38,403 nt of DNA from a virus, in the UHGV virus genome UHGV-0824332; one strand, 5' to 3'. Each line of letters begins with the position of its first letter. The first letter of the stretch is position 1. The notes below the pieces were generated by a model that did no database searches, had not been told where the DNA came from, and saw only the letters and a program-made list of their open reading frames with translations. Below, piece by piece: positions 7,323-7,484 of this stretch. The translations under genes were made by a program, and so were the position numbers.

Positions 7323-7484
7323 ATGAAAAAAGCATTTGCTGCACTGTTCGTTTTGTTGTCTCTGGTAGCTTCAACTCAGGCCTTTGCCGGTCGTTGTCAG
7401 CACGACAGCGATACTGCCGCTGACGGCTCCCGCTGCGGTGGGCGTTCTGCGGATTCCCGCCCGGGCGGCGGTGGCATTCGTTAA
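7323..7484 (+). CDS. Small secreted peptide precursor (53 aa; signal peptide plus about 31-aa Cys/Gly-rich mature part)
   Basis: MKKAFAALFVLLSLVASTQAFA signal-like N-terminus, then GRCQHDSDTAADGSRCGGRSADSRPGGGGIR; own promoter; GC-rich unlike neighbours. Confidence 0.4.
   Translation: MKKAFAALFVLLSLVASTQAFAGRCQHDSDTAADGSRCGGRSADSRPGGGGIR

What the first reader, a model, noticed from the sequence alone, without database searches (positions are those of the whole stretch)
7323..7484. Separately promoted secreted mini-peptide with a GC-rich body
A good sigma70-like promoter (TTGACG, 16 bp, TATAGA) precedes an ORF with a signal-peptide-like N-terminus and a short Cys/Gly/Arg-rich mature region, ending at a bidirectional terminator. 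GC content is much higher than in flanking moron genes, suggesting separate origin. It could be a secreted signalling or inhibitory peptide, or a non-coding GC-rich element mistaken for an ORF.
Basis: inference. Interest (0 to 1): 0.4.

Follow-up and report, generated by a model that had tools for sequence, protein, structure and literature searches.

The report
Phage moron encoding an exported mini-protein
The ORF is a real, strongly conserved gene for a roughly 31-residue exported, probably disulphide-looped mini-protein, carried as a self-contained accessory cassette in an epsilon15/phiV10-like temperate phage; it belongs to a widespread bacterial family that databases list but nobody has characterised.

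Summary
ORF 7323-7484 (+) encodes 53 aa: a Sec signal peptide (MKKAFAALFVLLSLVASTQAFA) followed by a 31-aa Gly/Arg/Asp/Cys-rich mature part. Strong hairpin terminators lie on both sides (7228-7246 and 7490-7507).

It is coding, not a non-coding GC element. Against enterobacterial orthologues, synonymous sites are near saturation (pS 0.5-0.95) while pN is 0-0.17.

The GC excess sits in codon positions 1 and 2, so it reflects amino-acid composition, not foreign origin.

A TAnnnT box at 7274-7279 (TGcTACACT) is conserved, and is followed by a covarying hairpin (7287-7302) that would lie at the 5' end of a transcript made from that box.

The protein matches phrog_14503, which RefSeq names "transmembrane anchored protein". 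That name probably misreads a cleavable signal peptide.

The core motif C-x4-D-x-A-x-DGSRCG-x-R-x4-[RK]PGG occurs in about 610 clusters (50% identity) across Proteobacteria, Cyanobacteria, Bdellovibrionota and Myxococcota. It appears alone or as a module next to membrane helices or after linkers. It has no Pfam model, no solved structure and no paper in the library searched.

The cassette is constant while its neighbours vary. It is present in 497 of 5,426 complete E. coli genomes and deleted in phiV10.

Function is unknown. The best guess is a periplasmic binding module acting in lysogenic conversion.

The parts
7228..7246 (+). Intrinsic terminator of the upstream 62-aa/110-aa membrane-protein operon (stem AAGCCCGC-GTT-GCGGGCTT, followed by TTTTTTAT). 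It marks the left edge of the conserved cassette.
   Evidence: The scanner called it. RNA fold gives -14.3 kcal/mol, z = -3.0. Megablast homology to E. coli prophages with different upstream genes starts at 7226-7228.
7252..7257 (+). Candidate weak -35 hexamer TGGACG, 16 nt upstream of the conserved -10 box.
   Evidence: Read from the sequence. TGGAC/TGGAT is conserved in the E. coli and Klebsiella phage copies. It matches only 4 of 6 consensus positions, so this is an inference.
7271..7279 (+). Probable real promoter -10 element, of the extended -10 type: TG-c-TACACT.
   Evidence: T59 and A60 are invariant and T64 is nearly invariant in the 17-sequence upstream alignment. This gives TAnnnT in 16 of the 17 sequences, the exception being Tolumonas (TAAACA), and in 14 of them it lies 6-8 nt before the hairpin. 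No transcription-start data exist.
7282..7309 (+). It is probably not the functional one.
   Evidence: The scanner did not call it, because it lacks T at position 6 of the -10 hexamer. The -35 hexamer is not conserved and overlaps the conserved hairpin.
7287..7302 (+). Hairpin GCCAC-ATTGAG-GTGGC, which would lie at or near the 5' end of the mRNA if transcription starts about 7 nt after the -10 box. The likely role is mRNA stabilisation or regulation.
   Evidence: The window hairpin folds at -8.4 kcal/mol. Equivalent hairpins (-4 to -12 kcal/mol) occur in 12 of 13 enterobacterial orthologues with different sequences, and Rouxiella has only a -2.0 kcal/mol stem. All 4 RNAalifold pairs show compensatory changes, and G-U pairs occur on the sense strand.
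7310..7314 (+). Weak Shine-Dalgarno sequence (TGGAA, GGA at 7311-7313), 9 nt before the ATG. It is preceded by a conserved CA-rich stretch.
   Evidence: Read from the sequence. GGA, AGG or GAG is conserved at this position in the orthologues.
7323..7388 (+). Sec signal peptide, 22 aa: MKKAFAALFVLLSLVASTQAFA. The predicted signal peptidase I cut is AFA|G.
   Evidence: Hydropathy profile and family-wide A-x-A|G conservation. In-frame upstream extensions are stopped within 2-6 codons in several orthologues, so Met at 7323 is the start.
7389..7481 (+). Mature 31-aa mini-protein GRCQHDSDTAADGSRCGGRSADSRPGGGGIR, containing the family core motif C25-x12-C38, G-x-R and RPGG.
   Evidence: phrog_14503, E = 2e-40. 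Invariant columns are C25, D30, A32, D34-G-S-R-C-G39, R41, G48 and G49. Purifying selection. AlphaFold2 pLDDT 77.5 for a small loop fold.
7482..7484 (+). Stop codon TAA.
7490..7507 (.). Shared hairpin terminator between the mini-gene (+) and the convergent 283-aa gene (-). It marks the right edge of the conserved cassette.
   Evidence: The scanner called it on the minus strand. Folds give -16.2 kcal/mol (+) and -15.7 kcal/mol (-). Homology to other prophages ends at 7509. phiV10 retains it and annotates it as a terminator.

Best explanation
Bases 7228-7509 form a self-contained accessory (moron) cassette of a temperate epsilon15/phiV10-like podophage. Its order is terminator, sigma-70-type promoter with an extended -10 at 7271-7279, 5' hairpin, weak ribosome-binding site, 53-codon ORF, shared terminator.

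**Shown**
- The ORF is translated sequence under strong purifying selection.
- It has a conserved N-terminal export signal with an A-x-A|G cleavage site.
- It is a member of a large cross-phylum family.
- The cassette is constant while both neighbouring slots are hypervariable.
- A viable relative, phiV10, has lost it.

**Inferred**
- The precursor is exported by Sec and cut by signal peptidase I after A22.
- C25 and C38 are oxidised in the periplasm to close a 12-residue loop.
- The hydrophilic 31-residue product has no hydrophobic core. It acts in the periplasm as a small binding module for a conserved envelope or periplasmic ligand, changing the lysogen's envelope properties (lysogenic conversion).
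- The binding-module reading rests on where the same roughly 27-residue motif occurs in other bacteria. It is found directly next to membrane helices on the predicted outer side, after Pro/Thr-rich linkers at the C-termini of a secreted nuclease and of other proteins, at the C-terminus of an SH3 protein, and in tandem copies.

The target is unknown.
For: **Coding**
- Over the 25-codon core, the enterobacterial orthologues show pS 0.50-0.95 with pN 0-0.17. Buttiauxella has 16 synonymous and 0 non-synonymous differences.

**Family**
- phrog_14503, E = 2e-40.
- 57 close homologues, which RefSeq names "transmembrane anchored protein".
- 731 clusters at 90% identity, and 610 clusters at 50% identity at E <= 1e-3.
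- 57 genome loci in Enterobacterales, Rhizobiales, Cyanobacteria, Bacteriovorax, Vibrio and Polyangiaceae.

**Export signal**
- A-x-A|G is conserved in 186 members. Lipobox variants occur in cyanobacteria.

**Module behaviour**
- Seen in longer proteins.

**Cassette autonomy**
- Terminators on both sides.
- A conserved -10 box and a covarying hairpin.
- In 74 IMG/VR prophages the cassette forms 1 cluster, while the upstream 600 nt form 9 clusters and the downstream 600 nt form 11.
- Different upstream genes in E. coli genomes: YafO, DUF2335, DUF4760.
- Other phage types also carry it.

**Dispensability**
- In phiV10 the Bro-N stop codon is joined directly to the last 23 nt of the ORF plus the terminator.
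Against: - There is no experimental evidence for transcription, translation, cleavage or disulphide formation.
- No partner or target is indicated. There are no conserved neighbours, no Pfam, NCBIfam or PADLOC match, no PDB sequence match and no meaningful fold match.
- The AlphaFold2 model has only moderate confidence (pLDDT 74-78) and little regular structure.
- Among the hits examined, no E. coli protein other than these 46-93-residue products was seen to carry the motif, so a decoy for a host domain is unsupported.
- The binding-module idea is an inference from domain architecture only.
Confidence: 0.65

Rival explanations
1. Uncleaved signal-anchor protein, as the database name "transmembrane anchored protein" implies. 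The N-terminal helix would stay in the inner membrane and display the 31-residue motif on the periplasmic face.
For: The only hydrophobic segment is N-terminal. In many relatives the motif is tethered to the membrane by a lipobox or by an adjacent transmembrane helix, so function at the membrane surface is plausible.
Against: A-x-A followed by Gly is conserved at a fixed distance from the first Cys: A in 144 of 186 members and G in 166 of 186. That is the signal peptidase I pattern and would not need conserving in a permanent anchor. The hydrophobic core is only about 13 residues.
Confidence: 0.15
2. Specific version of the main explanation: a periplasmic inhibitor of peptidoglycan hydrolases, or a superinfection-exclusion factor. 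The disulphide-closed loop would block an incoming phage's ejection-protein transglycosylase, or host or foreign lysozymes. This would be analogous to Ivy, PliC/MliC or T4 Sp.
For: - The family occurs in soluble and lipoprotein-anchored forms, stand-alone and without conserved neighbours. From my own knowledge, not tested here, known periplasmic lysozyme inhibitors show the same pattern.
- All 57 genome loci are from diderm lineages.
- This phage's ejection proteins match PHROG families annotated as endolysin or tail injection transglycosylase, two genes downstream of the mini-gene.
- It sits in a prophage hot-spot that elsewhere holds toxin-antitoxin genes.
Against: - No sequence or fold similarity to any known inhibitor family.
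- No PADLOC match.
- The motif's occurrence at the C-terminus of a nuclease and of an SH3 protein fits an anchoring module better than an inhibitor.
- This is purely analogical.
Confidence: 0.12
3. Secreted communication peptide, arbitrium-like or quorum-like. It would be processed and sensed by the phage or host to influence lysis-lysogeny decisions.
For: It is a small signal-peptide-bearing product of a temperate phage with its own promoter. The C-terminal tail after the GG varies between lineages: GGIR, GGAR, GGYR, or a single residue.
Against: - No receptor gene travels with it. Its neighbours fall into 9 and 11 different clusters.
- The most conserved part is the Cys loop, not a short C-terminal peptide.
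- The same motif is chromosomal in Rhizobiales and cyanobacteria, and is fused to larger proteins.
- Nothing indicates passage across the outer membrane.
Confidence: 0.04
4. Non-coding GC-rich element, or an ORF on another frame or strand, mis-called as a gene. This includes the 77-aa extension from the ATG at 7251 and the antisense ORFs 7318-7569 and 7371-7517.
For: The GC-rich body creates open frames on both strands. Some gene callers report the 77-aa version (phrog_3117) or an antisense ORF.
Against: - Substitutions are overwhelmingly synonymous in the 7323 frame.
- The protein motif is conserved across phyla even though synonymous sites are close to saturation.
- The upstream extension is interrupted by a stop codon or an indel in orthologues.
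- No Rfam family covers the ORF body. The only hits are sub-threshold matches to the upstream terminator.
Confidence: 0.01

Closest known systems
phrog_14503 ("membrane associated protein", moron category), which RefSeq names "transmembrane anchored protein" (for example TL-2011b gp43, YP_007001994.1, and WP_000708858.1)
   Same: The window's product is 100% identical to proteins of TL-2011b, phiv142-3, EC.W1-9 and at least 80 IMG/VR prophages. It gives a full-length match to the PHROG, E = 2e-40.
   Different: Nothing differs in sequence. The database name is probably misleading, because the hydrophobic segment looks like a cleavable signal peptide. No function has been assigned and no paper was found.
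Classical phage morons (promoter, gene, terminator cassettes of lambdoid phages, as defined for HK97/HK022; examples such as lambda bor and lom). This comparison draws on my own knowledge.
   Same: It is bounded by terminators, has its own conserved promoter-like box, is absent from the close relative phiV10, sits in a variable region between structural genes, and encodes an envelope-directed product.
   Different: Here the cassette is the constant element and its neighbours are the variable ones. Its compositional oddity is explained by its amino-acid content. The product is much smaller than Bor or Lom and is unrelated to them.
Small periplasmic lysozyme inhibitors (Ivy, PliC/MliC)
   Same: They are Sec-exported or lipoprotein-anchored and stand-alone. 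Ivy has a disulphide-closed loop. This is a resemblance recalled from knowledge, not a tested one.
   Different: There is no sequence, Pfam or fold similarity. The protein here is three to five times smaller.
Short calcium-binding Cys-containing modules (Excalibur DxDxDGxxCE, thrombospondin type 3, LDL-receptor class A DGSDE)
   Same: It has an Asp-rich stretch with DG followed by Cys, in an extracytoplasmic mini-domain.
   Different: No Pfam hit at E <= 1. The residue at the third position of the would-be loop is an invariant Ala, and only two Asp are conserved.

Membership tests
phrog_14503 / RefSeq "transmembrane anchored protein" family | Full-length sequence match to the family profile | tested here: met
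   E = 2.3e-40, residues 1-53 against profile positions 1-53 of 53. 100% identical database proteins exist.
phrog_14503 / RefSeq "transmembrane anchored protein" family | N-terminal export signal followed by C-x12-C, G-x-R and [RK]PGG | tested here: met
   Invariant columns in alignments A2, A3, A4 and A8. A-x-A|G statistics.
phrog_14503 / RefSeq "transmembrane anchored protein" family | Permanent transmembrane anchoring, as the name implies | not testable with these tools
   The sequence pattern favours cleavage. Fractionation or N-terminal sequencing is needed.
Phage moron | Own terminator, and insulation from the upstream operon | tested here: met
   Hairpins at 7228-7246 and 7490-7507, dG -14 to -16 kcal/mol.
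Phage moron | Own promoter | tested here: inconclusive
A conserved TAnnnT box preceded by TG at 7271-7279, but only 8 of 12 consensus matches and no transcription-start data.
Phage moron | Present in some and absent from other closely related phages; not needed for lytic growth | tested here: met
   phiV10 lacks window bases 6590-7461 and keeps a 23-nt remnant of the ORF. Only 12 of 50,697 phage records carry the gene.
Phage moron | Nucleotide composition differing from the surrounding genome because of foreign origin | tested here: not met
   The GC excess lies in codon positions 1 and 2 (0.74, 0.77). GC3 is 0.58 against a window mean of 0.48.
Bacterial lipoprotein | Lipobox L-x-x-C, with Cys as the first mature residue | tested here: not met
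   The window protein has AFA|G-R-C. Lipoboxes occur only in some cyanobacterial and Beijerinckiaceae members.
Arbitrium-type phage communication peptide (AimP) | Adjacent cognate receptor gene, and a short conserved C-terminal mature peptide | tested here: not met
   The neighbours vary, with 9 and 11 clusters. Conservation lies in the Cys loop, and the tail is variable.
Ivy / PliC / MliC lysozyme inhibitors; Excalibur calcium-binding domain | Match to the family profile or fold | tested here: not met
   No Pfam family at E <= 1. No PDB sequence match at E <= 10. No Foldseek match better than E = 5.
Known anti-phage defence systems (PADLOC) | Match to a defence-protein model | tested here: not met
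   No hits at E <= 0.1 for the mini-protein or its four neighbours.

The most novel reading that the evidence does not exclude
The roughly 27-residue C-x12-C / G-x-R / RPGG unit is an unrecognised extracytoplasmic mini-domain found across diderm bacteria. It has no Pfam model, no structure and no literature in the library searched. It would bind a conserved envelope component. Temperate enterobacterial phages would then express its free form from an autonomous cassette as a lysogenic-conversion factor, for example to mask that component or to block envelope hydrolases or superinfecting phages.
Probability: 0.25. Interest if true: 0.6.

Novelty: new member of a known kind. Interest (0 to 1): 0.4.

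Why it matters
- **What is settled.** The finding is a real small gene with a conserved export signal. Small genes like this are often mis-annotated or ignored.
- **Annotation corrections.** Three common annotation errors are addressed. The 77-aa start is wrong, the antisense ORFs are spurious, and the name "transmembrane anchored" probably misreads a cleavable signal peptide.
- **How common it is.** The cassette is present in 497 of 5,426 complete E. coli genomes. It is the one fixed element in a prophage region whose neighbours keep changing, which suggests selection for the gene itself.
- **Wider reach.** Its core motif defines a cross-phylum family of about 610 clusters (50% identity). No domain database, solved structure or paper in the library searched describes it. 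Finding its ligand would give a function to hundreds of small exported proteins and to a module found in larger ones.
- **Limits.** As it stands it is an uncharacterised accessory gene of a familiar kind, not a new type of system.

Tried and rejected
- **Domain and family libraries.** Pfam and NCBIfam gave nothing for the mini-protein beyond two sub-threshold NCBIfam matches that lie largely over the signal peptide (HxsA3, MarB), and PADLOC gave nothing.
- **Pfam on 67 longer relatives.** This gave only single occurrences of SNase, SH3_3 and T2SS-T3SS_pil_N, with no recurrent partner domain.
- **Solved structures.** The PDB profile search found 0 hits at E <= 10. Foldseek with both AlphaFold2 models found no match or only chance ones.
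- **Conserved neighbours.** All-against-all BLASTP of ORFs within about 3.5 kb in 57 loci found nothing shared outside the enterobacterial prophage backbone.
- **Context of two multi-domain relatives.** P0174 and P0180 sit among runs of small unannotated ORFs. Cluster names were uninformative.
- **Literature.** Three targeted searches found nothing on this family: "transmembrane anchored protein" with and without "phage", and "DGSRCG". A phiV10/epsilon15/moron search led to an unrelated paper, PMC3573123, about neaT in a P2-like prophage.
- **Rfam.** Only sub-threshold hits on the upstream terminator: MicC, Trp and Thr leaders.
- **IMG/VR scan.** All 80 loci returned had the identical protein. 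They were useful for context but not for covariation.
- **Considered and dropped.**
  - An EF-hand or Excalibur-type calcium loop: the Ala at the third loop position is invariant.
  - A sulfatase C-x-P-x-R motif: the spacing is wrong.
  - Lpp-like C-terminal Lys attachment: the C-terminal residue is variable.
  - A palindromic operator in place of the RNA hairpin: G-U pairs on the sense strand and compensatory changes favour RNA.

Full report
**Context**

The window is a temperate epsilon15/phiV10-like podophage or prophage. The best DNA matches for the region are Escherichia phages EC.W1-9, phiv142-3, HEMP4 and TL-2011b at 97-98.5% identity, and Klebsiella Uetakevirus-like phages at about 72%.

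The finding lies in a small plus-strand island. On one side is the tailspike gene (2814-5129, minus strand). On the other are the internal virion or ejection protein genes (8367-14503, minus strand). The island reads, in order:
- a 90-aa protein
- a Bro-N protein (5852-6589)
- a 62-aa and a 110-aa hydrophobic protein (6703-7225)
- the mini-ORF
- a convergent 283-aa protein with a signal-peptide-like N-terminus (7514-8365, minus strand)

**Checking the observation**

The ORF 7323-7484 encodes MKKAFAALFVLLSLVASTQAFA | GRCQHDSDTAADGSRCGGRSADSRPGGGGIR.

GC rises to 0.60-0.61 over its body, against 0.35-0.40 on either side.

A strong terminator lies at 7228-7246: -14.3 kcal/mol plus a T-run. It ends the upstream operon 77 nt before the ATG. 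A second hairpin at 7490-7507 (about -16 kcal/mol on both strands) follows the stop codon. That second hairpin has a proper T-tract only for the convergent minus-strand gene. On the plus strand the tail is GTTTGATC. It is therefore shared, but it is stronger for the neighbouring gene.

In the 2.1-kb region scanned, 2 sites reached the scanner's threshold, against 4.6 expected in shuffled sequence, so matches of that quality are common by chance.

**Is it a gene?**

Yes. I compared the 25-codon core with orthologues from 13 other Enterobacterales and Aeromonadales genomes. The proportion of synonymous differences is 0.50-0.95, while the non-synonymous proportion is 0-0.17. Buttiauxella shows 16 synonymous and 0 non-synonymous changes.

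In the alignment with Klebsiella phage BUCT711, the differences across the conserved DGSRCGGRSADSRPGG stretch fall at third codon positions.

The longer 77-aa reading from the ATG at 7251 is not conserved. BUCT711 has an indel and a stop there. In several orthologues the in-frame upstream extension is only 2-6 codons.

The antisense ORFs over the GC-rich body are by-products of composition.

Rfam gives only sub-threshold matches, all on the upstream terminator.

The rival reading, a non-coding GC-rich element, is rejected.

**The GC-rich body**

For the mature part, GC1 is 0.74, GC2 is 0.77 and GC3 is 0.58. The window average is 0.48. The excess comes from Gly, Arg, Ala, Asp, Pro and Cys codons. 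It does not indicate a different origin. The flanking 110-aa and 283-aa genes (GC 0.37-0.38, GC3 0.28-0.35) are the compositional outliers.

**The family**

The protein gives a full-length match to phrog_14503, described as "membrane associated protein" in the moron category (E = 2e-40). RefSeq names it "transmembrane anchored protein".

It has no Pfam, NCBIfam or PADLOC family.

A pattern scan of one genome per species found 57 loci. They came from:
- Enterobacterales
- Tolumonas and Vibrio
- many Rhizobiales/Hyphomicrobiales
- Rhodoferax
- several cyanobacteria
- a Caenarcanales MAG
- Bacteriovorax
- a Polyangiaceae MAG

All of these lineages are diderm.

A profile search found 731 clusters at 90% identity. 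An exhaustive HMMER search of 1.84 billion representatives found 610 clusters at 50% identity at E <= 1e-3, of which 89 were at E <= 1e-10.

The invariant or near-invariant residues are C25, D30, A32, D34-G-S-R-C38-G39, R41, R46 and G48-G49.

Most members are 47-55 aa: an export signal plus about 27 residues.

In 186 members with an N-terminal motif, the residues before the first Cys follow A-x-A | G-[NPRS]-C. Position -3 relative to the Cys is A in 144. Position -5 is A, S or V in 161. Position -2 is G in 166. This is the signal peptidase I pattern. Some cyanobacterial and Beijerinckiaceae members have a lipobox instead.

The database name therefore most likely misreads a cleavable signal peptide as a membrane anchor.

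**The motif as a module**

Longer relatives carry the same unit in several arrangements:
- at the N-terminus, followed by RNPDTDW, a transmembrane helix and a roughly 150-aa domain with no Pfam family
- at the C-terminus, after a small N-terminal domain and a transmembrane helix
- in tandem copies
- after Pro/Thr-rich linkers at the C-terminus of a staphylococcal-nuclease homologue and of other proteins, and at the C-terminus of an SH3_3 protein

No partner domain recurs.

The mature peptide contains almost no hydrophobic residues. AlphaFold2 gives a small loop fold of moderate confidence: pLDDT 74 for the full protein and 77.5 for the mature part, which reaches 81-85 over its first 20 residues. 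There is no solved relative by sequence or fold.

Three targeted searches of the library found no paper on this family.

**The cassette**

The upstream regions of the enterobacterial orthologues share two features:
- a TAnnnT box. In the window this is TACACT at 7274-7279, preceded by TG, which makes an extended -10. Klebsiella and Buttiauxella have TACAAT.
- a hairpin 6-8 nt downstream in most of them. In the window this is 7287-7302, GCCAC-N6-GTGGC.

The hairpin is present in 12 of 13 orthologues, at -4 to -12 kcal/mol, with different sequences:
- GCCGC/GCGGC in Kluyvera
- GCCACA/UGUGGC in Rahnella
- GCCGUCA/UGAUGGC, with G-U pairs, in Enterobacter and Franconibacter

All four RNAalifold pairs show compensatory changes.

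A transcript starting about 7 nt after the -10 box would begin at the base of this hairpin. I infer a stabilising or regulatory 5' stem-loop. This is not shown.

"Separately promoted" is therefore probably right, but through different hexamers. There are no transcription-start data.

**Mobility and dispensability**

Megablast of 7226-7520 finds the block in 497 of 5,426 complete E. coli genomes, and 422 of these cover at least 80% of the query. Homology usually runs from 7227-7228 to 7509, that is, from terminator to terminator. The annotated upstream genes differ: YafO-family toxin, DUF2335, DUF4760 and others.

In 74 IMG/VR prophages with the identical protein, the cassette forms one cluster. 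The 600 nt upstream form 9 clusters and the 600 nt downstream form 11.

Related copies also sit in other phage types:
- after a lysis cassette and a RelB/YafQ pair in E. coli
- between a MuF_C protein and tail genes in Pectobacterium

In Mesorhizobium the gene is chromosomal.

In phiV10 the Bro-N stop codon is followed directly by the last 23 nt of the ORF and then the terminator. This is an 872-bp deletion equivalent to window bases 6590-7461. The gene is therefore not needed for phage propagation.

Only 12 of 50,697 sequenced phage records carry it.

**Mechanism**

What is shown: a conserved coding sequence, a conserved export signal, family membership, cassette autonomy and dispensability.

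What is inferred:
- Sec export, with cleavage after A22.
- A C25-C38 disulphide closing a 12-residue loop.
- Action in the periplasm as a small binding module for a conserved envelope or periplasmic ligand, changing the lysogen's envelope.

The binding-module idea rests only on the domain architectures described above.

The rivals, in order of my confidence, are:
1. An uncleaved signal-anchor (0.15).
2. A periplasmic inhibitor of peptidoglycan hydrolases, or an exclusion factor (0.12). This rests on analogy only.
3. A communication peptide (0.04). No receptor travels with the gene, and the conserved part is the loop.
4. A non-coding element (0.01).

**Verdict**

This is a real, catalogued but uncharacterised small exported protein, carried in a classic moron cassette. 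It is ordinary in kind. The mildly interesting point is that its motif defines a broad, undescribed mini-domain family.

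Noticed in passing
window 7514-8365 (-): The convergent 283-aa ORF has a signal-peptide-like N-terminus (MKKINLFFGIVLSIVSVNPTAASS). It is very AT-rich (GC 0.37, GC3 0.28). It matches phrog_6118 (unknown function) and has no Pfam, NCBIfam or PADLOC match. It occupies a slot that differs between related prophages: Ant plus Arc in TL-2011b, and 98-aa or 126-aa proteins in others.
   Followed up: partly
window 6703-7225 (+): Two adjacent small hydrophobic ORFs of 62 aa and 110 aa (phrog_13406, phrog_36716; function unknown) form the operon ended by the terminator at 7228-7246. phiV10 lacks them. In other prophages the 110-aa gene's slot, immediately upstream of the cassette, holds a YafO-family toxin, a DUF2335 or a DUF4760 gene, which suggests a cargo or defence hot-spot. 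The PHROG match to the 110-aa protein starts at residue 26, so its true start may lie further downstream.
   Followed up: partly
L141 (phiV10) 2498-2548 versus window 6590-7509: phiV10 carries a deletion scar. The Bro-N stop codon is joined to the last 23 nt of the mini-ORF (CGGGCGGAGGCGGCATTCGTTAA) and the shared terminator. The record annotates a 29-aa 'hypothetical protein' (PhiV10p22) that is really the C-terminal end of the Bro-N reading frame.
   Followed up: yes
window 7303-7322, and the same position in L004-L016: A conserved CA-rich block (TACACA / CACACA) lies between the 5' hairpin and the GGA of the ribosome-binding site. Some orthologues read CAAGGAU there. It could be an unstructured translation enhancer or a CsrA-type ANGGA site. 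This was not tested.
   Followed up: no
P0143, P0155, P0158, P0170, P0175, P0178-P0180 and others; L149-L151: A set of roughly 220-290-aa metagenomic proteins share a common layout: signal peptide or lipobox, the same Cys-loop motif, RNPDTDW, one transmembrane helix, and a roughly 150-aa domain containing a (N/G)xYDAA..Y.L motif with no Pfam family. They sit among runs of small unannotated ORFs, with a SNase homologue nearby, so the context may be a mobile element.
   Followed up: partly
L052, L057, P0167, P0227 (cyanobacteria): Cyanobacterial members place the motif after a Gly/Ser-rich linker. The linker follows another small two-Cys N-terminal unit (C-[YF]-M-x6-8-[DN]-L-x2-[LF]-C-G) that also has no Pfam model.
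   Followed up: no
window 7156-7260 (+): Sub-threshold Rfam matches (MicC 28 bits, Trp leader 26 bits, Thr leader 24 bits) all lie on the terminator hairpin at 7228-7246. They look like terminator-driven false positives.
   Followed up: yes
L145 4984-5184 (-), and window 7318-7569 (-) and 7371-7517 (-): Open frames antisense to the GC-rich mini-gene exist in the window, and one is called as a gene in a public assembly. They are most likely spurious.
   Followed up: partly
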